Shown: positions 81-32,343 of the stretch, piece after piece | How the letters are laid out: each line of letters opens with the position of its first letter | Numbering within the stretch: the first letter of the stretch is position 1 | Source: a bacterium | GTDB lineage: Bacteria > SZUA-79 > Acidulodesulfobacterales > Acidulodesulfobacteraceae | Direction of reading: 5' to 3' | Length of the DNA stretch: 64,000 nucleotides | Assembly (NCBI GenBank): GCA_021795355.1 | Contig: JAJYPL010000004.1 | Location: forward strand, 1,467-65,466 | Translations under genes and position numbers: made by a program | Notes under the pieces: generated by a model | Seen by the model: only the letters and a program-made list of their open reading frames with translations | What the model was told of the DNA's origin: nothing | Databases searched by the model: none

Positions 81-1064
81 ATGGAACGTACTAAAAATTA
101 TTTGAAATTTTCATTGTTCCTGCTTCTTATTTTAATCGATGCCGGAAATATTAATAATAACGCAAATGCCGCAACCGTGTCTAATTTTAAGGTCGGAAGG
201 ATGCCTTACGGACTTGCGGTAGGCAAAAAAAATAATGTTTATGCCGCTATAAGCAGTTTTAATAATGTGGTTGAACTTAACCAAAACGGTAAATTAATTA
301 AAAATATTATTGCGGACTGGGCGCCTTCAGGGATTGTTATAAATAAAACCGGCTATATTTATATATCGACAGGCATAGGAAATGTCGTAAAACTTAATAA
401 CAAAGGTCAAATTCTTAAAAAGGTAAAAGTTGGAGTTATTCCGGCAGGAATCGCCGTTGGACCCGATGGAAATATTTATGTAACGTCCATACATTCTAAG
501 ACCGTTACTAAATTAAACCCGGCGCTTAAGATTTTAAAGGTTTTTTATGCCGGTATTGCACCATACGGTATAGTTTTAAACGATAACGGTTTTATATATG
601 TTACGAACTTCGTAAACAAAGGTACCGTTACCGTATTAAACAGAAGCGGAAAAATAATAAAAGTATTCAATGCGCAAAGAAAACCGGAAGGCATTGCGAT
701 AGGTCCTTCAGGCGATATATATGTTACGAACGGGTTAAGCGGCAGCGTTTTAAAATTTGACGCAAACGGGAAAATTTTAAAAAAATTTCACGTAAAAGGA
801 GCGCCTTACGGAATTGCTCTAAGCACTACCGGAAGCATGTTCGTTGCCTGCATATATGCCGATAAAGTAGTGAAATTAAGCCGTTCGGGCAAGGTTTTAA
901 ATACCTATAAAACCGGGAAAAATCCTAATTTTATACTAATAGATAATAAAGGCAATGTGTGGACGGCAAACAGCGGAGACGGAACCGTAACTAAAATTAG
1001 CGGCGCAACCCGCGGAAAAGAGTTTTTCCCGTATAATGGGCCGATTTGGCAGGAAAGCTTTTAA
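81..1064 (+). CDS. exported beta-propeller repeat protein (NHL/YVTN-like repeats)
   Basis: Hydrophobic N-terminal signal-like segment ending ANA. Seven reiterations of a ~40-aa unit (P.GIA...G.IYVT....V.KL...GK.LK). Confidence 0.6.
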   Translation: MERTKNYLKFSLFLLLILIDAGNINNNANAATVSNFKVGRMPYGLAVGKKNNVYAAISSFNNVVELNQNGKLIKNIIADWAPSGIVINKTGYIYISTGIGNVVKLNNKGQILKKVKVGVIPAGIAVGPDGNIYVTSIHSKTVTKLNPALKILKVFYAGIAPYGIVLNDNGFIYVTNFVNKGTVTVLNRSGKIIKVFNAQRKPEGIAIGPSGDIYVTNGLSGSVLKFDANGKILKKFHVKGAPYGIALSTTGSMFVACIYADKVVKLSRSGKVLNTYKTGKNPNFILIDNKGNVWTANSGDGTVTKISGATRGKEFFPYNGPIWQESF

Positions 1065-1107
1065 TTTAATTTCTAATTTAATATCTTAAAAGAAAGGAGG
1101 GATTTAA

Positions 1108-1368
1108 ATGGCTGAAGAAAAAAGTTTAGAAAACGTAAAACCGGATGAGACATTAGACGTGTTAGGCGAAACATGTCCTATTCCGGAAGCTATGGCGCAT
1201 AAAAAGCTCAACAAAATGAAAGTGGGGCAGGTGCTGGAGATTTATACCGATCATGCGGCGGCGGTTGAGAATTCGTTCCCGTCCATGCTTAATAAGTTAA
1301 ATTATCCTTACTGTGTAACAAAGACCGGTCCCGGTGAATTTACCATTAAAATTAAAAAAACATCGTAA
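1108..1368 (+). CDS. tusA: TusA/SirA-family sulfur carrier protein
   Basis: 86 aa. LDVLGETCPIPEA contains the CPxP active-site motif of TusA. Strong RBS aaaggaggg upstream. Immediately precedes a YeeE-family gene. Confidence 0.8.
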   Translation: MAEEKSLENVKPDETLDVLGETCPIPEAMAHKKLNKMKVGQVLEIYTDHAAAVENSFPSMLNKLNYPYCVTKTGPGEFTIKIKKTS

Positions 1369-1426
1369 GCCGTATTTTAACCCAGCTATAATTTAACATA
1401 TACAAAGAGAGGGAGGTATTAAAACG

Positions 1427-2605
1427 ATGAATCCTTATTTTCTCGAATACACTATAATAGGTATTGCGGGCTTAATTTTCGGGGCAGCGCTCGAAAGAGG
1501 TAGAATGTGTTTCGTGCTTGCAACTAATAATATATTCATGGCAAAAGATACAAAAATTTTGGAAGGCATATTACTGGCATTTGGAATTTCTATTCTTGCT
1601 TTCGGCATCATAGAATCCGCAGGAATAGTTCCGATACAATCCGCAGTTCAAGGCGTGTTTCCCGCAGGATGGTATGATTTAGTCGGCTCTCTTTTGTTTG
1701 GATTCGGCATAGGGCTTTGCGGAGCATGCATGAGCGGATTAATATTCAGGGCAGGTTCCGGATTTACCCAAAACTGGATGCAATTATTCGGAATACTTGT
1801 CGGAACGATATTCTTTGCTTTCATAATATTCCCGCTGACTAATTTTCTTTACTGGATTTTACACACTATACCGTGGCTTAACTTAAAACCGGGATTTGCC
1901 GACTATATTCCTCATGAATTGTTTGGAAACGCAGTATGGGGACCGTTTGTAACGGCTCTAATTTTCGGCGGCTTGTTTCTCATATTGGGATTATATTTGA
2001 CAAAAAGGAGATTTGGAAAGATAAGCAAAGAACGCGGCGTAAACTATAAAGAACCGATAATAACTTGGGATATGCTAAAATTTAAAGAGGCTTATTCTCC
2101 GAGATTGGGCGGCATATTGTTTGCCGTGGTTGCTATTATAGTTTTTTTAGTCTCTTATTTTACCGTTCATAAAGTTACATATATGGGCGTAACAACCCCT
2201 TACGGCAGTTTCGATACTTATATTTTAGCGCCTTTTATCAATCTATATAATACGGTAGGGCATTATAAAGCATCGTTTTTGCCCAAAATATCGTCAAACT
2301 GGTTTCAGATAGTGCCGGTGGCAATTCCTATGACCTTGCTTGTTATAACTACATTTGCCGGTTCTACCACTACGGCTATTTTAGGCGGGGAATTCAAATG
2401 GAGAGTGCCGAAAAGAAAAATAATGTTTCTTCAAAATTTTATCGGCGGCATTCTTACCGGCGTCGGCGCAAGAATAGCTTTAGGCTGCAACATAGGTACT
2501 TTATGGTCGGGGTTTTTAATGTTTTCTTGGGCAGGAATGTTATTTTTGCCGACCCTTGTTTTGGGAATGTATCTTGCTCTTAAATTTCAACAGGCAATAT
2601 GGTAA
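1427..2605 (+). CDS. yeeE: YeeE/YedE-family sulfur-compound (thiosulfate) transporter
   Basis: Polytopic membrane protein with Cys-bearing motifs GRMCFV, GLCGACMSG and LGCNIGT typical of YeeE/YedE. Paired with tusA as in yeeE-yeeD loci. Confidence 0.8.
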   Translation: MNPYFLEYTIIGIAGLIFGAALERGRMCFVLATNNIFMAKDTKILEGILLAFGISILAFGIIESAGIVPIQSAVQGVFPAGWYDLVGSLLFGFGIGLCGACMSGLIFRAGSGFTQNWMQLFGILVGTIFFAFIIFPLTNFLYWILHTIPWLNLKPGFADYIPHELFGNAVWGPFVTALIFGGLFLILGLYLTKRRFGKISKERGVNYKEPIITWDMLKFKEAYSPRLGGILFAVVAIIVFLVSYFTVHKVTYMGVTTPYGSFDTYILAPFINLYNTVGHYKASFLPKISSNWFQIVPVAIPMTLLVITTFAGSTTTAILGGEFKWRVPKRKIMFLQNFIGGILTGVGARIALGCNIGTLWSGFLMFSWAGMLFLPTLVLGMYLALKFQQAIW

Positions 2606-2649
2606 AAATGAAGTATTAAATTTATCTATACTTTTAAGGAGGAATTTAA

Positions 2650-2946
2650 ATGGCTGCGGCTGACAATATGAAAAAAAGAAAAAATCATAACTGGTGCGGA
2701 ATAACGTTACTGGCTTTATACGGATTATTTACTATATACGCTTCATTTTTCTTATCTTATTTAAATAAAGATAAGGTTATAGGGAAATTATCCAATGAAG
2801 CTATAGCAGGAATAAAAGAAAGTTTTATCTTGTGGGGCGTAATCATGATTATAGGCGCAATTCTTCTTTTAATAAGGGAATATGTGCTGAAATCCGGACA
2901 GGAAGAGGTTAAGGATACGGAAAGCGGGGTATCCCCTCACTATTAA
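2650..2946 (+). CDS. small membrane protein, two predicted TM helices, unknown function
   Basis: 98 aa with two hydrophobic stretches. RBS aaggagg upstream. Same strand, tightly spaced within the sulfur cluster. Confidence 0.45.
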   Translation: MAAADNMKKRKNHNWCGITLLALYGLFTIYASFFLSYLNKDKVIGKLSNEAIAGIKESFILWGVIMIIGAILLLIREYVLKSGQEEVKDTESGVSPHY

Positions 2947-2992
2947 TCTGTTTTGAAATTAAATAATATAATAACGTTGAGGGATTGTATAA

Positions 2993-3298
2993 ATGAAACT
3001 TGCTCTTTTAATAACGACGGATAAATATAAAGATTACGTAGAAAATATCATAAACAGCGCTAAAAAATCAGGTTATGAATTGAAATGTTTTATAATGGAC
3101 GACGGAGTAAATTTATTAAACGATACAAGTTTCGTCGGCAAATTAAAAGAAACCGGTTCGGATGTTTCGCTTTGCGAATATTCATGCGGTATCAGAAACA
3201 TACATGAAAAGATAGAAGGTTTTCTGTATGCTTCCCAGTACGAAAACGCAAGCATAATAAACTCGCTGACAAACGAAGACAGGTTTCTGGTTTTTTAA
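2993..3298 (+). CDS. small DsrE-family protein (DsrE-like paralog)
   Basis: 101 aa. The pattern MKLALLI...G.ELKCFIMDDGVNLL...SLCEYSCGIRNI...DRFLVF parallels DsrE (FFY.DGV, VCVAA..RRGI, DRLVVF). Confidence 0.5.
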   Translation: MKLALLITTDKYKDYVENIINSAKKSGYELKCFIMDDGVNLLNDTSFVGKLKETGSDVSLCEYSCGIRNIHEKIEGFLYASQYENASIINSLTNEDRFLVF

Positions 3299-3310
3299 GA
3301 CGGGGGAAAA

Positions 3311-3583
3311 ATGACTAAAAAGATTGCGGTATTTACGCGCGACAGACAGGCCGAGGCGCTTAGAATGTCCGGAGGACTTACGCTCCTCGACGATAAAGTA
3401 GAAGTATATGTTCTTGATAGAAAACTTGAAGATAATAAGGTTATAAACAAGCATCTCGATATGGTTCAAAATATGCTTGAACTTCCGGTATTAACGAATT
3501 TCAGGGATAACCGGTTCGAATATATATCGAACGAAGAACTGGCGGATAAAATGCTCGAATATGACATAGTTATACCATATTAA
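3311..3583 (+). CDS. small DsrF-like protein (no cysteine)
   Basis: 90 aa, starts 13 nt after the preceding gene. KKIAVFTR...AEALRMSGGL..DDKVEVYVLD resembles the DsrF/TusC N-terminal half. Weak similarity only. Confidence 0.35.
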   Translation: MTKKIAVFTRDRQAEALRMSGGLTLLDDKVEVYVLDRKLEDNKVINKHLDMVQNMLELPVLTNFRDNRFEYISNEELADKMLEYDIVIPY

Positions 3584-3612
3584 TATTAATTACTTATTGC
3601 GGAGAATAAAAT

Positions 3613-3783
3613 ATGAAAATACTTCATGTTTTAAAAAGAGAGCCGTCAAAAACGGAAACTGAAATTATGGAATTGCATTCCAAATCTTACGATACGAAAA
3701 TTATCAGGCTTTATGAGCCAGGAGTAAACTATGACAGTTTTATAACGGACGTATTTAAATACGACAAAATATTTTGCTGGTAA
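3613..3783 (+). CDS. 56-aa ORF, DsrH/TusB-like mini-protein (absent from the supplied track, under 60 aa)
   Basis: ATG at 3613 preceded by ggaga (3601-3605); stop TAA at 3781-3783. Translation MKILHVLKREPSKTETEIMELHSKSYDTKIIRLYEPGVNYDSFITDVFKYDKIFCW. The N-terminus (ILHvlK..P) and the C-terminal W resemble DsrH/TusB. Confidence 0.35.
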   Translation: MKILHVLKREPSKTETEIMELHSKSYDTKIIRLYEPGVNYDSFITDVFKYDKIFCW

Positions 3784-3853
3784 TCCGAAGATAATGTTAT
3801 AATATAATTGTAACAATAAATTTAATGCAAGAATAAAAAAAGGAGTTAAGATT

Positions 3854-4378
3854 ATGAAAAAGTTTATTATCGTAAGCTTAAGCGTAATGTTAATGCTTTC
3901 ATCTGCGGCAGTTTCTTATGCGGGAAATTTTAATCAAATGCTGGCAAAAAAAGCTTATCAGGCATTAAACCCGCGCCATGTGGGCTCAAAACCTAATGCG
4001 GTAGGGGTAGTCGGCGTTCCTCAAATTATGGCGCCGGTGCTTTATAAAGAGTATATTGTAGAACATAACGCGAAACACTATTTTCTTTTAGACGTCAGAG
4101 AACATGCCGCATTCGTGAAAATGGGGCACATAGCGGGCGCGCATAACATACCTCTGCAGGTTCTTTTCACGCCTAAGTATTTAAAAATGCTTCCAAAACA
4201 TAGGACGATTATAAGCATTTGCTACGTGGGACAGTGGGAGTCCATGGCCGCGGCATTATTAAAGACGATGGGCTATAATGTGAAAATATTAAGATTCGGT
4301 ATGTCGTCTTGGAATCCAAAAATAGATTTGCTTCATAGAAATAAAATAGCATTTGGAAACTTTCCGCTTGTACATTAA
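3854..4378 (+). CDS. exported rhodanese-domain sulfurtransferase
   Basis: Signal peptide (MLMLSSAAVSYA). Rhodanese core FLLDVRE...GHIAGAHNIP and a catalytic-loop cysteine in ICYVGQWES. Confidence 0.75.
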   Translation: MKKFIIVSLSVMLMLSSAAVSYAGNFNQMLAKKAYQALNPRHVGSKPNAVGVVGVPQIMAPVLYKEYIVEHNAKHYFLLDVREHAAFVKMGHIAGAHNIPLQVLFTPKYLKMLPKHRTIISICYVGQWESMAAALLKTMGYNVKILRFGMSSWNPKIDLLHRNKIAFGNFPLVH

Positions 4379-4430
4379 TAAAATGAAAATCAAAAAATAA
4401 AATTGAATAGAAATAAGGAGGTGATAATTC

Positions 4431-4646
4431 GTGAAAAAAATTAACAACATTATATTTACCGCCGTGTTAGCTCTGCTGTTTGCATTTGGGATCGGCGCGG
4501 CTTCAGGCTCAAGCGCATATGCTTTTCAAGGCAGCCATTTTATGAAACATTCCGCTTTGACTAAAAAAACTTCAAAAAAAACAAAAAAAGGCAGCGGGAG
4601 CAAGTCAAAAAAAGCTTTAAATAAAATGGGGGCGGGCTGTTTATAA
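4431..4646 (+). CDS. small exported lysine-rich protein ending in GAGCL
   Basis: GTG start with aaggagg RBS. Signal peptide ending AYA. The ~40-aa mature part is very basic, with a single Cys at the penultimate position. Confidence 0.5.
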   Translation: MKKINNIIFTAVLALLFAFGIGAASGSSAYAFQGSHFMKHSALTKKTSKKTKKGSGSKSKKALNKMGAGCL

Positions 4647-4679
4647 TATAATAAAAGTATAATGCAAAAAATTAGCATA

Positions 4680-4710
4680 GAAGGGTGAGAAAATTCACCC
4701 TTCTTTTTTT
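4680..4710 (+). terminator. rho-independent terminator
   Basis: gaagggtga / tcacccttc 9-bp stem with a 6-nt loop, followed by a run of 7 T. Confidence 0.7.
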
Positions 4711-4773
4711 ATTCGGGATATGTAATATAACATAAAATTTATTTTTCATATAAAATAAAAGGAGAAATAATAT

Positions 4774-5301
4774 ATGCGATATTTTACAACGGCAGTTTTA
4801 ATATTTATTACAATTGTTTTTACCGTCGCAGCTTTCGGTATTCCGTCCCATGCTTCTACTTTATCCGCTAAAAAAAGCGCCGCTAAAATTGCGATGATAA
4901 GGAAATATTTCTTATCCCATTCTTTCGATTTCGGTCCGATTTTTTATAAATATCACCCTGGTCCTAATTGGTATCTTCAGCATATTAAAAGCTTGAGGCT
5001 TACCTCAAGCCAGTTAGCAATAATAAAAAAGTTAGATGCCGGAATGATAAAAGATACCGTCATAGGAATAAAGAATCTAAAGATTGCATATTCCAAGTAC
5101 AAAAAAGATTCGATGGAAACTGCTCCAAAAATAAAAACCGTTATAAACGATATAAAAAATATTGGCAAGGCGCAAACTTACCTTGCTTACGAGATGATCC
5201 CGTATCACCTTAAAAGTTATGCCGTATTAACGCCTGCACAGAAAAAAATATTTCAAGATTTAAGAATGACTAAACTAAATGCCGGATGTTTGGCAAAGTG
5301 A
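4774..5301 (+). CDS. exported LTXXQ-motif (CpxP/Spy/ZraP-like) protein ending in AGCLAK
   Basis: Signal peptide ending SHA. Two LTxxQ motifs (LTSSQL, LTPAQK). A single Cys in the C-terminal NAGCLAK. Confidence 0.55.
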   Translation: MRYFTTAVLIFITIVFTVAAFGIPSHASTLSAKKSAAKIAMIRKYFLSHSFDFGPIFYKYHPGPNWYLQHIKSLRLTSSQLAIIKKLDAGMIKDTVIGIKNLKIAYSKYKKDSMETAPKIKTVINDIKNIGKAQTYLAYEMIPYHLKSYAVLTPAQKKIFQDLRMTKLNAGCLAK

Positions 5302-5583: not shown

Positions 5584-5781
5584 CAATTTTATAATAAATA
5601 AAGTTTTTTTTATAAAATATTGCTTTATGTTATAATGTATTCCTATTAAGCAGTGCGAAGAGGTAGCGGCTTTTTTTATACTTTGTAAAGATGATTTTGA
5701 TACCTTTGATAACCTTGTACTTGTTCAAGGAATTAGGTGTTTTTAACAATTAAACCTTTTAAAAGTAAGGAGGAAGTCGTT

Positions 5782-6354
5782 ATGGCAGAAGAAAAAAAAG
5801 TTGGCGACCCGACATCGTTGGGTCTATTCGCGTATGGCATAGCTCTTACGCTTTTGGCTACTGTAATCGGGGGATTTGCGGGTCCGTTTAACGGGCTGAT
5901 TTTAGGAACGATTATTTTTACGGGAGGAGTAGGTCTTGTTTTAGCAGGCGTTTACGATTTTATGCGCGGCAGCGCTTTCGGAGGGGTAGCGTTTACGGGA
6001 TGGGGCTTGTTATTCCTAACCGTTTCTACTTTTTTTATTGCAACGGTGATTACAAAAGCCGCGGCTGTTCCTGCGCCCATGTTCGGCGGCTGGTTCCATT
6101 TATTGTGGGCTATCTTTGGCTTTGCAACTTTTTTTGGGGCTAATGTATTAAAAAAATGGGCAATGCTGCAAATTGCCCTCTTTTTAACAAGCGTTTTTCT
6201 TTTAATACAGTCTATAGGACTCTTTACGGGGTCGCTAGCTGGCCTTTTGCCTATAGTAGGAATAGTCGGCATAGTTGCAGGTTTATGCGCACTTTATACA
6301 GCTATAGCCGTATTAATTAACGGAGCGGCTGAAAAAACTGTTCTTCCGGCGTAA
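5782..6354 (+). CDS. GPR1/FUN34/YaaH (AceTr) family acetate/succinate channel-like membrane protein
   Basis: GDPTSLGLFAYG matches the N-terminal NP.sLGL signature, followed by six hydrophobic segments. Start moved to the ATG at 5782, behind the aaggagg RBS; the track ORF begins at 5737. Confidence 0.65.
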   Translation: MAEEKKVGDPTSLGLFAYGIALTLLATVIGGFAGPFNGLILGTIIFTGGVGLVLAGVYDFMRGSAFGGVAFTGWGLLFLTVSTFFIATVITKAAAVPAPMFGGWFHLLWAIFGFATFFGANVLKKWAMLQIALFLTSVFLLIQSIGLFTGSLAGLLPIVGIVGIVAGLCALYTAIAVLINGAAEKTVLPA

Positions 6355-6381
6355 ATGTAAAAAAGATTTATTACCGTTTCG

Positions 6382-6412
6382 GCGGGCATAAAAGTTTCGC
6401 TTTTATGCCCGC
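6382..6412 (+). terminator. stem-loop terminator candidate
   Basis: gcgggcataaaag / cttttatgcccgc 13-bp perfect stem. No clear T-tract follows. Confidence 0.5.
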
Positions 6413-6580
6413 ATCCATATTTATACTCCCTGCTGCAATTATAAAATCATATAAAAAAATATTCCTCGCCCATCTATTTTTTAAATCCGAAAATTAACCA
6501 AAAACCCGTTTTAATTTTATTATTTTAGGTATATAATAATAGGTAAAATTTTAGAAAAATAATTTTACTAACGCAACGCG

Positions 6581-7207
6581 ATGAAAACCGAAATAGAAAT
6601 AGAAAAAAAACTTTTGCTTCATATATGCTGTTCGCCCTGCTTAATGTATCCGTACTCCGTTATTACCTCTGACGCTTCAAATATCCCAAATAGCCGTGAA
6701 AATCAGGATAGACAGTCCTTAGACGGTAAATTTGACAAGATTATAGGTTATTTTTATAATCCTAATATTCATCCATATACGGAATATCTTAGGCGCGAGG
6801 AGTCTTTAAAAAAATTCGGCGAGACCGTCGGTCTCAACGTGATTTACGAAAAAGATTACGATATCGAGGAGTTTATAAGAAACGTGGTTTTCAGGGAAGA
6901 AAACCGCTGCTACTACTGCATCGGCAGCAGGCTGGAAAAAACAGCCGCCCTTGCAAGGTCGTCGAAGTTCACCCATTTTTCGACTACCCTTTTATACAGC
7001 AGGCACCAGGACCACGACTATATAAAAGAAACGGGTTTTAACCTGCAAAAGAAATACGGAGTTAATTTTTATTACGAAGATTTCAGGCAGGGCTATAAGG
7101 AAGGCATAGAACTTTCTCATAGATACGGCTTATACCGTCAAAATTATTGCGGTTGTATTTATAGCGAGAAGGAAAGATTTTTTTCAAAATCTTCAAAATC
7201 TTCTTAG
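6581..7207 (+). CDS. queH: epoxyqueuosine reductase QueH (DUF208)
   Basis: Motifs LLHICCSPC, YNPNIHPYTEY, CYYC and YRQNYCGCIYS are typical of QueH. Confidence 0.75.
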   Translation: MKTEIEIEKKLLLHICCSPCLMYPYSVITSDASNIPNSRENQDRQSLDGKFDKIIGYFYNPNIHPYTEYLRREESLKKFGETVGLNVIYEKDYDIEEFIRNVVFREENRCYYCIGSRLEKTAALARSSKFTHFSTTLLYSRHQDHDYIKETGFNLQKKYGVNFYYEDFRQGYKEGIELSHRYGLYRQNYCGCIYSEKERFFSKSSKSS

Positions 7208-21197: not shown

Positions 21198-21289
21198 GGA
21201 GAGATGGCCGAGTCCGGTTGAAGGCGATTGACTCGAAATCAATTGTAGGCGAAAGCTTACCGGGGGTTCGAATCCCTCTCTCTCCGCCA
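21198..21289 (+). tRNA. tRNA-Ser (anticodon CGA), class II with long variable arm, CCA encoded
   Basis: Acceptor GGAGAGA/TCTCTCC. Anticodon stem attga/tcaat with loop cTCGAaa. Variable arm gtaggcgaaagcttac. T-loop GGTTCGAATCC. 3' GCCA. Confidence 0.9.
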
Positions 21290-26099: not shown

Positions 26100-26336
26100 A
26101 TGACTGACGAAACTAAAAAGAAAGTCGAGGATAAAATTTTAGGGCTTGTGACGGAATATGCAGGAAAAAAAAGGTTCAAGCCGATAGATATCGTTAAGGA
26201 AATGGAAAAGGAGTTTGCAAGCGAAGGGTTAACTAAAGACGATATTAAAGGAGCATTAAAAGACTTAATGGACGATGAAAAGCTTGTTTACGGATATGCA
26301 GGAGGCAGTTTCCTGACGCTTCCGGAAAATAAGTAA
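26100..26336 (+). CDS. dsrD: DsrD-like small winged-helix protein
   Basis: 78 aa, immediately after dsrB. Lys-rich N-terminus and a C-terminal LVYGYAGGSFLTL that aligns with the EYWSSGSTTMYGL region of DsrD. Confidence 0.7.
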   Translation: MTDETKKKVEDKILGLVTEYAGKKRFKPIDIVKEMEKEFASEGLTKDDIKGALKDLMDDEKLVYGYAGGSFLTLPENK

Positions 26337-28237: not shown

Positions 28238-28579
28238 ATGGCAAGTTTTGTTTATAACGGAAAAACGATAGAAACGGATGACGAAGGTTACCTTCAGAAT
28301 CTTGGAGACTGGGATAAAGGTCTTGCTGAAGTTCTTGCGAAGCAGGAAAATGTCGAATTAACCGAAAAGCACTGGAAATTAATTGAATGGATCAGGGATT
28401 ATTTCCAGAAATTTCAGGTTGCGCCGGCAATTAAATCGCTGACGAAAGAGGTCATGTCGCTTGAAAATTTACCTGATAAAAAAGAAGCTAATAAATTCAT
28501 TTATGAATTATTTCCGGAAGGTCCCGCAAAACAGCTTGCAAAAATCTCCGGTCTTCCTAAACCGACAGGCTGCGTTTAA
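28238..28579 (+). CDS. dsrC: DsrC/TusE-family protein with a single (penultimate) cysteine
   Basis: The C-terminus KISGLPKPTGCV matches the DsrC swinging arm. The position of the second conserved Cys, 11 residues upstream, is Ala. Confidence 0.85.
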   Translation: MASFVYNGKTIETDDEGYLQNLGDWDKGLAEVLAKQENVELTEKHWKLIEWIRDYFQKFQVAPAIKSLTKEVMSLENLPDKKEANKFIYELFPEGPAKQLAKISGLPKPTGCV

Positions 28580-31193: not shown

Positions 31194-31227
31194 TAAATAA
31201 TAAATTAAATTATTAATGGAGGAACTA

Positions 31228-31578
31228 ATGAAATTAGGCATTCTTATTAAAGAAGGCCCTTATATGCATCAGGCTATGGACACGGCCTATAATTTTATAT
31301 TAGCGGCTATGGAAAGCGGACATGAAATAACGGGCATATTTTTTTATAACGACGGAGTTTATAACAGATGTGCAACGCTTGAACCTCCAAGAGACGAAAG
31401 GAATATCATGAAACTCCTTACGGAATTAGAATTGAAAGGAGTCAGATTAATAGTCTGCGTTGCGGCTGGGAAAAGAAGAGGCATAGTAAATCAGACGGTA
31501 TGCAAAGTGGAAGAAATATCGGGACTTGGACAACTGCTCGAACTCTGCATAACATCCGACAGAACTATAACTTTTTAA
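31228..31578 (+). CDS. dsrE: DsrE sulfurtransferase subunit
   Basis: EGPYMHQAMDTAYNF, FFYNDGV, VCVAAGKRRGI and ISGLGQL align closely with Allochromatium DsrE. Start at the ATG 5 nt after GGAGG. Confidence 0.9.
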   Translation: MKLGILIKEGPYMHQAMDTAYNFILAAMESGHEITGIFFYNDGVYNRCATLEPPRDERNIMKLLTELELKGVRLIVCVAAGKRRGIVNQTVCKVEEISGLGQLLELCITSDRTITF

Positions 31579-31616
31579 TAAAATATAATAAAAATACTGA
31601 ATAAAGGAGCCATAAG

Positions 31617-31991
31617 ATGTCTGAACAAGAAAAAACTAAAGTTATGTTTGTATGCAGAACCGCTCCGTACGGAACCATATACGAACAGGAAGCTATAGAA
31701 GCTATGGTTATGTTCGGCGCATACGAACAGGATATCAGCGTAACATTTACGGGAGACGGAGTATTTTCGCTGAAAAAAGGACAGGATACTTCATTGCTGG
31801 GAAAGAAAAATTTTTCCATGACCTATCCTATATTAATAGACGACTTTGAAATTTCGCATATATACGTCGAAAAAGAGTCTCTCGAAGAAAGAGGTTTGAC
31901 GGAAGACGATTTAGCGACGGAAGTAGAAATAATAGATAGAAATTCTTTAAAACAAAAGATGGGAGAAATGAAAGCTTTACTTCCGTTTTAA
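31617..31991 (+). CDS. dsrF: DsrF
   Basis: APYGTIYEQEAIE, GDGVFSL.KGQDT, KNFS.TY and LEERGLTEDDL match DsrF/TusC. Confidence 0.9.
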   Translation: MSEQEKTKVMFVCRTAPYGTIYEQEAIEAMVMFGAYEQDISVTFTGDGVFSLKKGQDTSLLGKKNFSMTYPILIDDFEISHIYVEKESLEERGLTEDDLATEVEIIDRNSLKQKMGEMKALLPF

Positions 31992-32043
31992 ATAATAAAA
32001 ACCTAAATTTATTAAAGATTAATAATTAAGGAGGAAATTAAAA

Positions 32044-32343
32044 GTGCTGCACATAGTAAAAAAATCTCCATATGAATCTTCCGCATTCAGCGACGCAATA
32101 AACTATATGGAACAAAACGATATAATGCTTTTAACCGAAGACGGCATATATGCCGCAAAAAAGGGCGGAAAATTTGAAGGAGCGTTAAAAAGCCTTATGC
32201 AAAAAAATGCCGTTTTCTGTCTTATAGCCGACGTAAAAGCAAGAGGCATTCAGGAAAGCGAAATAATAGAAAACGTAAAAGTAATAGACTATAAAGGCTT
32301 TGTAGAAAAAGTAGTTGAACATAATCCTATGACGTGGTCGTAA
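32044..32343 (+). CDS. dsrH: DsrH
   Basis: GTG start. LHIVKKSPYES, EDGIYAA, DVKARGI and IDYKGFV match DsrH/TusB. Confidence 0.85.
   Translation: MLHIVKKSPYESSAFSDAINYMEQNDIMLLTEDGIYAAKKGGKFEGALKSLMQKNAVFCLIADVKARGIQESEIIENVKVIDYKGFVEKVVEHNPMTWS

What the first reader, a model, noticed from the sequence alone, without database searches (positions are those of the whole stretch)
1108..5301. Extended TusA-YeeE sulfur-relay cluster with exported rhodanese, miniature DsrEFH-like proteins and Cys-terminated exported proteins
Nine same-strand, closely spaced genes lie here:
- TusA (CPIP active site)
- YeeE/YedE (three Cys motifs)
- a 2-TM protein
- three small DsrE/F/H-like proteins
- a signal-peptide rhodanese (CYVGQW loop)
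- two exported proteins ending in AGCL
TusA-YeeE pairs are established as thiosulfate uptake and sulfur-transfer modules. To my knowledge, this extension with periplasmic and cytoplasmic cysteine-bearing carriers is not a described system. It looks like a trans-envelope sulfane-sulfur relay that could feed the dsr/apr island 17 kb downstream.
Basis: partly seen in the sequence, partly recalled or inferred. Interest (0 to 1): 0.8.

Follow-up and report, generated by a model that had tools for sequence, protein, structure and literature searches.

The report
Known sulfur-relay cluster with lineage-specific periplasmic extras
This is an acid-mine-drainage bacterium's copy of the already described YeeE-TusA-DsrEFH type II ("YTD") sulfur-trafficking gene cluster, and it carries an exported rhodanese plus two small lineage-specific proteins that are candidates for handing sulfur to the importer.

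Summary
The nine genes exist as described.

**Core.** Five genes (tusA, yeeE and three small genes of 101, 90 and 56 aa) are the published YTD cluster, also called DsrEFH type II. It was characterised biochemically in cable bacteria in 2026 and reported from 985 genomes. The window has the common order tusA-yeeE-E-F-H.

**Extras.**
- An exported single-domain rhodanese. Signal-peptide rhodaneses also abut DsrEFH type II genes in 12 of 43 assessable metagenome loci, so this is a recurrent accessory.
- A 2-TM protein with one cysteine.
- A Lys-rich exported 71-aa protein ending GAGCL.

The last two are confined to Ca. Acidulodesulfobacterales. They are conserved in order in every relative whose contig reaches them.

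**Ninth gene.** It is a CpxP/Spy/CnrX-fold periplasmic protein. It follows a terminator-like hairpin. It is missing from, or sits elsewhere in, about half of the relatives, so it is not a stable part of the cluster.

**Context.** The window also encodes canonical DsrEFH type I inside its dsr operon, and a sox cluster lies directly upstream.

**Verdict.** This is a new variant of a known kind. The rhodanese-plus-GAGCL pair is a testable candidate for the unknown periplasmic hand-off to YeeE.

The parts
81..1064 (+). Exported NHL-repeat beta-propeller protein (327 aa). Probably the first gene of the unit; the finding did not include it.
   Evidence: Pfam NHL 9e-16, SGL 2e-16 and Vgb_lyase 9e-22. 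It has an N-terminal hydrophobic leader and ends 43 bp before tusA. It lies directly upstream of tusA in the window and in L013, L015, L017, L018, L020, L021, L024, L025 and L026. In L011 it is upstream of the TetR gene, and it is absent in L009.
1108..1368 (+). g1, TusA-family sulfur carrier (86 aa, Cys23 in GETCPIP)
   Evidence: Pfam TusA 2.3e-17. NCBIfam YedF, TusA and TsuB equivalogs all score below their cut-offs. It is 83-99% identical across the lineage.
1427..2605 (+). g2, YeeE/YedE-family membrane transporter (392 aa)
   Evidence: Pfam Sulf_transp 2.4e-49. TsuA and YedE NCBIfam models score far below their cut-offs. Cys28, Cys98/101 and Cys354 are invariant across 4 lineage members.
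2650..2946 (+). g3, small 2-TM membrane protein (98 aa). Conserved N-terminal KKNHNWCG with a single Cys16, and C-terminal GV(A/S)PHY. Lineage-specific insert between yeeE and dsrE.
   Evidence: No family hit. Two hydrophobic segments at residues 17-35 and 57-75. It is conserved at this position in all lineage loci at 63-97% identity. Its HMM gave 0 hits in 80 metagenome DsrEFH-II loci, and Type A loci have no ORF between yeeE and dsrE.
2993..3298 (+). g4, DsrE type II (101 aa). Cys61 is the predicted active-site cysteine.
   Evidence: Pfam DsrE 25.3 bits against a cut-off of 22.7. The profile finds 72 representatives, nearly all about 100 aa long, and 1074 proteins in the larger collection. 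Cys61 is invariant across a 30-sequence multi-phylum alignment.
3311..3583 (+). g5, DsrF type II (YTD 'Chp', 90 aa, no Cys)
   Evidence: 47% identical to the 90-aa gene of a Nitrospirota cluster and 41% to the 93-aa gene of a Thermoleophilia cluster. 80 metagenome homologues at 42-60% identity, nearly all next to E and H.
3613..3783 (+). g6, DsrH type II (YTD 'Chp', 56 aa). The C-terminal Cys55 is specific to this lineage.
   Evidence: 33-36% identical to the 55-58-aa genes of Nitrospirota and Thermoleophilia clusters, which have S or T in place of Cys55.
3854..4378 (+). g7, exported single-domain rhodanese (174 aa, single Cys123 in CYVGQW)
   Evidence: Pfam Rhodanese 5.4e-14. The catalytic loop aligns with PDB 3gk5. 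It has a leader peptide. It belongs to the same subfamily as the 163-166-aa exported rhodaneses that abut dsrE-II in 9 metagenome loci (phmmer 1e-13 to 1e-17; shared motifs LK.LPK, C..GQ and N[FY]P).
4431..4646 (+). g8, small exported Lys-rich protein (71 aa) with an invariant C-terminal (M/L)GAGCL. Its single Cys is the penultimate residue.
   Evidence: It follows the rhodanese in all lineage loci that reach that far. Identity falls to 40% but the tail stays invariant. Its HMM gave 0 hits in 80 metagenome loci. No family hit.
4679..4704 (+). Intrinsic-terminator-like hairpin (10-11 bp stem followed by TTTTTTAT) that ends the g1-g8 unit
   Evidence: A hairpin plus T-run recurs after g8 in 8 of 11 lineage loci, with different sequences.
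4774..5301 (+). g9, exported CpxP/Spy/ZraP/CnrX-like protein (175 aa, two LTXXQ motifs, tail LNAGCLAK). A neighbour, not a stable member of the cluster.
   Evidence: AF2 model with pLDDT 73. The best PDB fold matches are CnrX, NccX, CpxP, ZraP and Spy. It has only 9 homologues, and the distant ones lack the Cys tail. It is found at unrelated loci in L004-L006 and L008 and is absent after g8 in 5 lineage loci.

Best explanation
**What it is.** The window comes from a Ca. Acidulodesulfobacterales genome from acid mine drainage. Positions 81-4714 form one transcription unit: NHL propeller, tusA, yeeE, g3, dsrE-II, dsrF-II, dsrH-II, exported rhodanese, g8. It lies downstream of a TetR-family regulator gene and a sox cluster. 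Its core is the known YTD / DsrEFH type II sulfur-trafficking cluster.

**Most likely mechanism.**
1. In the periplasm, sulfane sulfur arises from the truncated Sox system encoded upstream, or from polysulfide, thiosulfate or polythionates.
2. The single cysteine of the exported rhodanese g7 picks this sulfur up as a persulfide. It may pass by way of the penultimate cysteine on the flexible Lys-rich tail of g8. This step is inferred.
3. YeeE moves the sulfur across the membrane along its three cysteine motifs. g3 may act as a small accessory subunit whose Cys16 lies at the cytoplasmic face. This step is inferred from TsuA/SoxT1A work.
4. TusA Cys23 accepts the sulfur and passes it to Cys61 of DsrE type II. 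From there it goes to DsrC (28238-28579) and DsrAB. These two transfers were shown in vitro for the cable-bacterial orthologues only.

**Direction of use.** The route would feed oxidation or disproportionation, not sulfate reduction.

**g9.** g9 is a separately transcribed periplasmic CpxP/CnrX-fold protein. It shares the Cys tail but is not a fixed component.
For: **Identity of the core**
- Pfam and NCBIfam domain hits.
- The g4 family consists of proteins of about 100 aa with an invariant Cys61.
- g5 and g6 are 33-47% identical to the two small genes of YTD clusters in Nitrospirota and Thermoleophilia.
- The same tusA-yeeE-E-F-H order occurs in 8 or more metagenome loci.
- Literature: the YTD definition (PMC8780430, PMC9751629); DsrEFH type II biochemistry and synteny with tusA and yeeE (PMC13293266); an independent AF2 study (PMC13047784).

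**Extent of the unit**
- Short intergenic gaps and ribosome-binding sites.
- A terminator-like hairpin after g8.
- g1-g8 synteny in all lineage genomes that reach that far.

**Periplasmic half**
- Leader peptides, and exactly one Cys each in g7 and g8.
- Signal-peptide rhodaneses abut DsrEFH-II genes in 8 of 25 loci assessable on both sides and 12 of 43 assessable on at least one side. They also do so in Nitrospira bacterium SG8_35_1.

**Acceptor and source**
- DsrC and DsrAB lie in the same window.
- soxYZ, soxA and a soxB-like gene lie directly upstream.
Against: - There are no expression or biochemical data for this organism.
- My single-sequence AF2 model of g5 was uninformative (pLDDT 44). 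Profile comparisons of g5 and g6 with DsrE/F/H sequences or with PDB chains were not significant. The DsrF/H fold therefore rests on homology to proteins that others modelled.
- The genome already has canonical DsrEFH type I in its dsr operon. A second DsrC-loading complex looks redundant, so type II may serve another acceptor.
- Most YTD clusters have no rhodanese, g3 or g8, so these are not required for the core function.
- The transported sulfur species is unknown.
- g8 also occurs paired with g9 away from any rhodanese (L008).
Confidence: 0.6

Rival explanations
1. The rhodanese, g8 and g9 are a periplasmic thiol-based stress or metal-handling set, plausible in acid mine drainage with high metal loads. 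Under this reading they merely sit next to the YTD cluster, and the single cysteines bind metal or buffer reactive sulfur species instead of feeding YeeE.
For: - The g9 model matches the metal sensors CnrX and NccX, the zinc protein ZraP, and CpxP and Spy.
- g9 and a g8 paralogue occur as a pair next to ferritin and an aldo-keto reductase, far from any sulfur gene (L008).
- g9 alone lies next to pheS in L004-L006.
- The Cys tail is found only in g8 and g9 among 2406 ORFs scanned.
Against: - g7 and g8 stay downstream of dsrH-II in every lineage genome that reaches that far.
- Exported rhodaneses of the same subfamily abut dsrE-II in unrelated metagenome lineages that lack g8 and g9.
- The Foldseek E-values for g9 are weak (0.025 and above).
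- No His- or Cys-rich metal site is evident in g8.
Confidence: 0.2
2. The cluster is a thiosulfate (or polythionate) uptake and decomposition system of the TsuA-TsuB (YeeE-YeeD) type. It would serve assimilation or detoxification, with DsrEFH type II as acceptor of the TusA-bound products, and it would have no connection to DsrC or DsrAB.
For: - YeeE plus a TusA-like partner is the established thiosulfate uptake pair (PMC11073785; cited).
- A thiosulfate route ending at the DsrEFH-like complex has been proposed for cable bacteria (PMC13047784).
- The type I DsrEFH in the dsr operon could cover DsrC loading on its own.
Against: - g2 scores far below the TsuA equivalog cut-offs (93 against 400 bits and 54 against 645 bits). 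g1 scores 16.5 against 147.5 bits for TsuB.
- Cable-bacterial TusA, DsrEFH II and DsrC were not persulfidated by thiosulfate, and DsrE II passed sulfur to DsrC in vitro (PMC13293266).
- The cluster sits between a sox cluster and the dsr/apr island.
Confidence: 0.12
3. The YeeE-like protein acts mainly as a signal-transducing importer, as SoxT1B does. It would deliver sulfane sulfur to the adjacent TetR-family repressor to switch on the sox and dsr genes, and would not be a mass-flux route.
For: - A TetR_N gene precedes the cluster in all lineage loci.
- SoxT1B of Hyphomicrobium is a signalling YeeE-like protein encoded next to a repressor (PMC11582611).
Against: - A dedicated DsrEFH type II complex and a rhodanese are more than signalling would need.
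- The known sulfane-responsive repressors in that system are ArsR-type, not TetR.
- No cysteine analysis of the TetR protein was done here.
Confidence: 0.06

Closest known systems
YTD gene cluster / DsrEFH type II (Electronema aureum GS, Desulfurivibrio alkaliphilus, Desulfolithobacter dissulfuricans; PMC13293266, PMC13047784, PMC9751629)
   Same: - It has yeeE/yedE-like, tusA, a dsrE-like gene of about 100 aa with the conserved cysteine, and two small conserved genes (90 and 56 aa).
- It has the same tusA-yeeE-E-F-H order as many metagenome clusters.
- It co-occurs with dsrABC, sat, apr and qmo.
   Different: - A 2-TM Cys protein is inserted between yeeE and dsrE.
- An exported rhodanese and a GAGCL-tailed exported peptide are appended.
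- An exported NHL propeller precedes the cluster.
- g6 carries a lineage-specific C-terminal Cys.
- The genome also has DsrEFH type I and a sox cluster.
SoxT1A sulfur-import module of Hyphomicrobium denitrificans (PMC11582611)
   Same: - It follows the same concept: a periplasmic thiol protein presents sulfane sulfur to a YeeE-like importer encoded beside a small membrane protein.
- Cytoplasmic sulfur transferases (rhodanese, DsrE-family, TusA) take over.
- It is linked to a truncated Sox system.
   Different: - There the periplasmic partner is a DsbA-like oxidoreductase and the rhodanese is cytoplasmic.
- The 56-aa membrane protein there has no cysteine.
- The sink there is sHdr-LbpA, not DsrC/DsrAB.
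- The DsrE there is DsrE3C, not a DsrEFH type II trimer.
TsuA-TsuB (YeeE-YeeD) thiosulfate uptake pair of E. coli / Spirochaeta thermophila (PMC11073785)
   Same: A YeeE-family transporter with three cysteine motifs is encoded next to a TusA-fold partner with a CPxP cysteine.
   Different: - Both proteins score far below the NCBIfam equivalog cut-offs.
- The context is dissimilatory.
- There are extra DsrEFH II and periplasmic components.
Periplasmic single-domain rhodaneses Sud (Wolinella succinogenes polysulfide-sulfur transferase) and PspE (E. coli). Named from my own knowledge, apart from the PspE NCBIfam hit.
   Same: They are exported, have a single rhodanese domain and a single catalytic cysteine, and are proposed to shuttle sulfane sulfur to a membrane complex.
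   Different: - The PspE models score below their cut-offs (24 against 102 bits).
- g7 has an extra N-terminal helical segment and a conserved C-terminal N[FY]P motif shared with the DsrEFH-II-linked rhodaneses.
- The proposed partner is an importer, not a reductase.
CpxP / Spy / ZraP / CnrX periplasmic helical-hairpin family (for g9 only)
   Same: - It is exported and all-helical, with two LTXXQ motifs.
- The best fold matches are CnrX (target-normalised TM 0.68-0.77), CpxP, ZraP and Spy.
   Different: - The Pfam LTXXQ and NCBIfam Spy scores are below their cut-offs.
- An added C-terminal LNAGC(L/M)(A/G)K tail is present only in this lineage.

Membership tests
YTD cluster / DsrEFH type II | A DsrE-like protein of about 100 aa carrying the conserved sulfur-binding cysteine (Cys67 in Electronema) | tested here: met
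   g4 is 101 aa and passes the Pfam DsrE cut-off. Cys61 is the only cysteine invariant across 30 family members from several phyla. I did not align it to the Electronema sequence itself, which was not available.
YTD cluster / DsrEFH type II | Two further small conserved genes (Chp1/Chp2, i.e. DsrF and DsrH type II) adjacent to the dsrE-like gene | tested here: met
   g5 and g6 are 47%/41% and 36%/33% identical to the 90-93-aa and 55-58-aa genes of Nitrospirota and Thermoleophilia clusters. E, F and H were found together in 55 of 80 metagenome loci.
YTD cluster / DsrEFH type II | Synteny with tusA and a yeeE/yedE-like gene | tested here: met
   tusA and yeeE lie directly upstream. The same order is seen in L036, L037, L041, L053, L064, L075, L098 and L103.
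YTD cluster / DsrEFH type II | The three proteins adopt DsrE/F/H folds and form a heterotrimer | tested here: inconclusive
   The single-sequence AF2 model of g5 had pLDDT 44. hhalign of the g5 family against the g4 family gave probability 3.7%. PDB profile searches of g5 and g6 found nothing. The g4 family hits DsrE structures weakly (3pnx 0.0035, 2hy5 0.22).
YTD cluster / DsrEFH type II | Sulfur transfer TusA -> DsrE Cys -> DsrC | not testable with these tools
   Shown in vitro only for the Electronema aureum proteins (PMC13293266).
YTD cluster / DsrEFH type II | Co-occurrence with dsrAB (usually the reductive type) and dsrC/MK | tested here: met
   dsrA, B, L, C, M and K are in the window. 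Whether DsrAB is of the reductive or oxidative type was not determined here. Tan 2019 reports dsrD together with dsrL and dsrEFH in this order. The 78-aa ORF at 26100-26336 gave no Pfam hit.
TsuA/TsuB (YeeE/YeeD) thiosulfate uptake equivalogs | The score reaches the curated NCBIfam equivalog cut-off | tested here: not met
   g2 scores 92.9 bits against 400 (NF052577) and 54.1 against 645 (NF041049). g1 scores 16.5 against 147.5 (NF041048).
YedE/YedF selenium metabolism pair | The score reaches the curated NCBIfam cut-off | tested here: not met
   g2 scores 109 bits against 350 (NF033796). g1 scores 35.7 against 79 (NF008242).
Rhodanese (catalytically competent single domain) | A rhodanese domain above the Pfam cut-off, with the active-site cysteine in the loop position | tested here: met
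   52.9 bits against 22.2. Cys123 aligns with the loop cysteine of 3gk5.
CpxP/Spy/ZraP (LTXXQ) family, for g9 | A Pfam LTXXQ or NCBIfam Spy score above cut-off | tested here: not met
   LTXXQ scores 17.9 bits against 24.3 and Spy scores 15 against 174. The fold resemblance is nevertheless supported: pLDDT 73, top Foldseek hits CnrX, CpxP, ZraP and Spy, and two LTXXQ motifs are visible.
SoxY-type or DsrC-type swinging-arm sulfur carrier, for g8 | Homology to SoxY or DsrC, or demonstrated persulfide or thiosulfonate loading on the terminal cysteine | tested here: not met
   There is no family hit. Only the last residues resemble each other: g8 ends GAGCL, DsrC ends PTGCV and the local SoxY ends VGGC. 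Loading is not testable here. This is a functional analogy only.

The most novel reading that the evidence does not exclude
The exported rhodanese g7 and the 71-aa Lys-rich protein g8 would form a previously unrecognised periplasmic donor pair for YeeE-family importers. In this reading g8 is a minimal, intrinsically disordered sulfur carrier. Its penultimate cysteine (the invariant GAGCL-COOH, reminiscent of the PTGCV arm of DsrC and the GGC arm of SoxY) is persulfidated by the rhodanese and threaded into the YeeE channel. The Cys-bearing 2-TM protein g3 would help on the cytoplasmic side. The same tail grafted onto the CpxP-like g9 would mark a small family of tail-cysteine periplasmic proteins served by the same enzyme.
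Probability: 0.2. Interest if true: 0.65.

Novelty: new variant of a known kind. Interest (0 to 1): 0.4.

Why it matters
How reduced sulfur reaches the cytoplasmic Dsr machinery is still open. This applies to organisms that carry 'sulfate-reducer' genes yet oxidise or disproportionate sulfur. PMC13293266 states that the uptake mechanism is unknown.

This cluster and the rhodanese-bearing clusters in other phyla put candidate periplasmic donors in the same operon as the importer. That gives concrete proteins to test. The candidates are:
- an exported rhodanese subfamily;
- in this lineage, a Cys-tailed peptide and a Cys-bearing membrane protein.

It also shows a genome that carries both DsrEFH type I and type II. 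That bears on whether the two complexes are redundant.

The core finding itself is already in the literature.

Tried and rejected
- **Genome-contig scan with a YeeE alignment.** The patterns were too lineage-specific. It returned only Acidulodesulfobacterales loci.
- **Metagenome scan with diverse DsrE-II alignments A3 and A4.** The g5 alignment A8 worked instead.
- **AF2 of g5 with an alignment of locus-derived sequences.** The single-sequence model had pLDDT 44 and was not used for fold search.
- **Remote homology of g5 and g6 to DsrF/H.** Profile searches against PDB found nothing, and hhalign of the g5 family against the g4 family was not significant. This agrees with published statements that these proteins do not align with canonical DsrF/H.
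- **Nearest non-lineage DsrE relative, P0024 (46% identity).** It is a stand-alone gene beside a nitroreductase, not a YTD cluster, so it says nothing about how deep the extension goes.
- **Selenium (YedE/YedF) reading.** Rejected on scores and context.
- **g3 as a split-off piece of YeeE.** Rejected. Type A YeeE proteins are about 360 aa and have no adjacent small ORF.
- **Lipoprotein or RiPP reading of g8.** Considered and dropped. There is no Cys at the leader cleavage site and no maturase gene nearby.
- **Rfam scan of the window.** It found only one tRNA.

Full report
**1. Observation**

The nine + strand ORFs are present at the stated coordinates. They have ribosome-binding sites and gaps of 12-127 bp.

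Domain searches confirm four of them:
- TusA for g1, E 2.3e-17.
- Sulf_transp/YeeE for g2, E 2.4e-49.
- DsrE for g4, 25.3 bits against a cut-off of 22.7.
- Rhodanese for g7, E 5.4e-14.

g3, g5, g6 and g8 have no family hit. g9 has only sub-threshold LTXXQ/Spy hits.

The cysteine pattern is as follows.
- g7, g8 and g9 each have an N-terminal hydrophobic leader and exactly one cysteine: C123 in ICYVGQW, C70 in MGAGCL, and C172 in LNAGCLAK.
- g3 has two hydrophobic segments and one cysteine.
- YeeE carries cysteines in three conserved motifs.

The downstream island is real. dsrN, A, B, L, C, M, K, E, F and H, then sat, aprBA, qmoABC and an H+-pyrophosphatase, occupy 21.9-43.3 kb.

**2. Source and surroundings**

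The YeeE protein is found exactly on a 59-kb contig of MAG GCA_021832585.1. Relatives are named Ca. Acidulodesulfobacterium acidiphilum and Ca. Acididesulfobacter diazotrophicus. These belong to the acid-mine-drainage group Ca. Acidulodesulfobacterales (PMC6776010).

Just before the window starts, the same strand encodes soxY, soxZ, DUF302, a soxB-like gene, three DsrE-family genes, soxA and a TetR-family regulator. An exported NHL-repeat beta-propeller gene (81-1064) ends 43 bp before tusA. It holds this position in most relatives.

**3. The core is a published system**

[quoted passage not shown] That study reported:
- Sulfur moves from TusA to DsrE-Cys67 and on to DsrC in vitro.
- The genes occur in 985 genomes from 20 phyla.
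- In bacteria they are syntenic with tusA and yeeE.
- They mostly co-occur with reductive dsrAB.

An independent study reached the same structural conclusion (PMC13047784).

I tested membership in three ways.
- **g4 family.** A profile of g4 and its close relatives finds 72 representatives, nearly all about 100 aa long, among 1.8 billion proteins. A broader profile finds 1074 proteins in the larger collection, mostly Nitrospirota. Cys61 is invariant across a 30-sequence alignment spanning several phyla.
- **Neighbourhoods of distant members.**
  - Nitrospira bacterium SG8_35_1 and relatives: rhodanese(309 aa)-90aa-55aa-DsrE(100)-YeeE-TusA.
  - A Thermoleophilia MAG: YeeE-TusA-DsrE(95)-93aa-58aa.
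  - In the first two, the 90/93-aa and 55/58-aa proteins are plainly homologous to g5 (47% and 41% identity) and g6 (36% and 33%).
  - A third locus (L034): DsrE(100)-56aa-559aa-YeeE-TusA.
- **Metagenome scan with the g5 alignment.** It returned 80 loci at 42-60% identity. Local HMMs found E, F and H together in 55 of them. At least 8 loci have exactly the window's order, tusA-yeeE-E-F-H.

The fold itself I could not confirm.
- The single-sequence AF2 model of g5 had pLDDT 44.
- Sequence-profile comparisons to DsrE/F/H were not significant. The published work also reports that these proteins do not align with canonical DsrF and DsrH.

**4. The extension, tested gene by gene**

*Within the lineage.* In all related species-level genomes whose contig extends far enough, the order TetR-(NHL)-g1-g2-g3-g4-g5-g6-g7-g8 is kept. 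This holds with g4 down to 67% identity, g6 to 49% and g8 to 40%.

*g9.*
- g9 follows g8 only in the window and in L013, L015, L017, L020 and L021.
- It is absent after g8 in L009/L023, L011, L018, L024 and L025.
- In the genome that carries L025, the g9 homologue lies on another contig next to pheS (L004).
- In L008 a g8-like and g9-like pair lies between an aldo-keto reductase gene and a ferritin gene.
- In the window, a stable hairpin with a T-run (4679-4704) separates g8 from g9.
- Such a hairpin recurs after g8 in 8 of 11 lineage loci, with different sequences.
- g9 has two LTXXQ motifs. Its AF2 model (pLDDT 73) best matches CnrX, NccX, CpxP, ZraP and Spy.
- More distant g9 homologues lack the Cys tail.

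I conclude that g9 is a neighbour and not a fixed member.

*Outside the lineage.* HMMs of g3, g8 and g9 found nothing in the 80 metagenome loci. Type A loci have neither an ORF between yeeE and dsrE nor a rhodanese after dsrH. So g3 and g8 are lineage-specific.

*The rhodanese is not lineage-specific.*
- Nine loci (Type B: F-H-E-Rhd) carry a 163-166-aa rhodanese with a signal peptide directly after dsrE-II. It is related to g7 (phmmer 1e-13 to 1e-17). It shares g7's architecture and motifs beyond the generic domain.
- Three more loci, and SG8_35_1, carry an exported two-domain rhodanese directly before dsrF-II.
- Overall a signal-peptide rhodanese abuts the trio in 8 of 25 loci with 700 bp or more on both sides, and in 12 of 43 loci with one side assessable.

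The papers I read discuss periplasmic rhodaneses as separate loci, not as part of the cluster. The two papers on this bacterial group do not mention TusA, YeeE or rhodanese at all.

**5. Mechanism**

The cytoplasmic half (YeeE to TusA to DsrE-Cys to DsrC) is carried over from experiments on orthologues. It has not been shown here.

The periplasmic half is inferred from three things: localisation signals, the single-cysteine design of g7 and g8, and the recurrent gene linkage of exported rhodaneses with DsrEFH type II.

The g8 tail is invariant and unique. The pattern [AG]GC[LMIV] within the last three residues occurs only in g8 and g9 homologues among 2406 ORFs scanned. Its end, G-C-aliphatic-COOH, resembles the PTGCV end of the window's DsrC and the VGGC end of the local SoxY. 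That is a resemblance of two or three residues. It is a lead, not evidence.

Two points weaken a simple 'feeds DsrC' model.
- The genome also has canonical DsrEFH type I in its dsr operon.
- Most YTD clusters lack all three extras.

**6. Comparison and novelty**

The closest system is the YTD / DsrEFH type II cluster. All sequence- and synteny-based membership criteria are met. The structural and biochemical criteria were inconclusive or untestable here.

The closest concept for the whole envelope-spanning arrangement is the SoxT1A module of Hyphomicrobium denitrificans. It consists of a periplasmic DsbA, a YeeE-like importer, a 56-aa membrane protein, a cytoplasmic rhodanese, DsrE3C and TusA (PMC11582611).

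The finding is therefore a new variant of a known kind. Two points are new. First, an exported rhodanese subfamily recurrently linked to DsrEFH type II, which to my reading has not been pointed out. Second, two lineage-specific cysteine proteins, g3 and g8, in the operon.

**7. Scores**

Interest is 0.4. The most novel reading not excluded is a rhodanese plus Cys-tailed peptide donor pair for YeeE, with probability about 0.2 and interest about 0.65 if true.

Noticed in passing
window 31216-32343 (dsrE 31216-31578, dsrF 31617-31991, dsrH 32044-32343) versus 2993-3783: The same genome encodes canonical DsrEFH type I inside its dsr operon (Pfam DsrE 1.9e-25, DsrE 9.7e-19, DsrH 1.6e-25) as well as DsrEFH type II in the tusA-yeeE cluster. 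If both complexes load DsrC, they look redundant.
   Followed up: partly
L001 1-8600 (the contig directly upstream of window position 1): A sox cluster lies on the same strand: thioredoxin, soxY (ending VTVGGC), soxZ, DUF302, a soxB-like gene, three DsrE-family genes, soxA, a second Metallophos protein, then a TetR-family regulator whose gene ends at about window position 16. No soxCD was seen in this stretch.
   Followed up: partly
L029 8805-9098; L030 7807-8064; L034 11236-11628: In Nitrospirota clusters, tusA is followed by a small protein with an N-terminal TM segment and long GGYG / GGYGE(M)P repeats. From my own knowledge this recalls Gly/Tyr-rich sulfur-globule envelope proteins. It is unrelated to g3 and g8.
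   Followed up: no
L039 6052-9425; L056 6035-9422: Two DsrEFH type II trios lie head to head in one locus: H-F-E-tusA on the minus strand and F-H-E-rhodanese on the plus strand. yeeE-tusA follows further downstream.
   Followed up: no
L013 1417-2598, 4523-5065, 10375-11769: One lineage member carries two further exported rhodaneses: a 180-aa paralogue of g7 between the TetR and NHL genes, and a 393-aa two-domain lipoprotein-like form. It also has a PQQ_2 beta-propeller protein right after g9.
   Followed up: partly
L020 6971-7417; L021 12491-12933: In Ca. Acididesulfobacter, a second tusA copy (75-79% identical to g1) and a rhodanese fragment follow g9. These loci lack a strong hairpin between g8 and g9.
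   Followed up: no
L045 9983-10762 and 11003-12712 (similar ORFs in L039, L056 and L034 7576-9255): Between the exported rhodanese and yeeE, Type B loci encode two proteins. One is a Tat-signal C_GCAxxG_C_C 'putative redox-active protein'. The other is a membrane protein of about 560 aa of the PMT_2 glycosyltransferase family.
   Followed up: partly
L027 2768-3079: The closest non-lineage relative of g4 (P0024, 46% identity) is a stand-alone DsrE-like gene between a nitroreductase gene and a YkuD transpeptidase gene, near a NiFe hydrogenase. No tusA or yeeE is nearby.
   Followed up: no
window 26100-26336: A 78-aa ORF lies between dsrB and dsrL, where dsrD is expected (Tan 2019 reports dsrD in this order). 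It gave no Pfam hit at E below 0.01.
   Followed up: partly
window 5737-7207 and 21198-21286: Downstream of g9 lie an acetate-uptake-transporter family gene (AceTr, 2.7e-22) and a QueH-like gene. The only Rfam hit in the window is a tRNA at 21198-21286, just upstream of dsrN.
   Followed up: no
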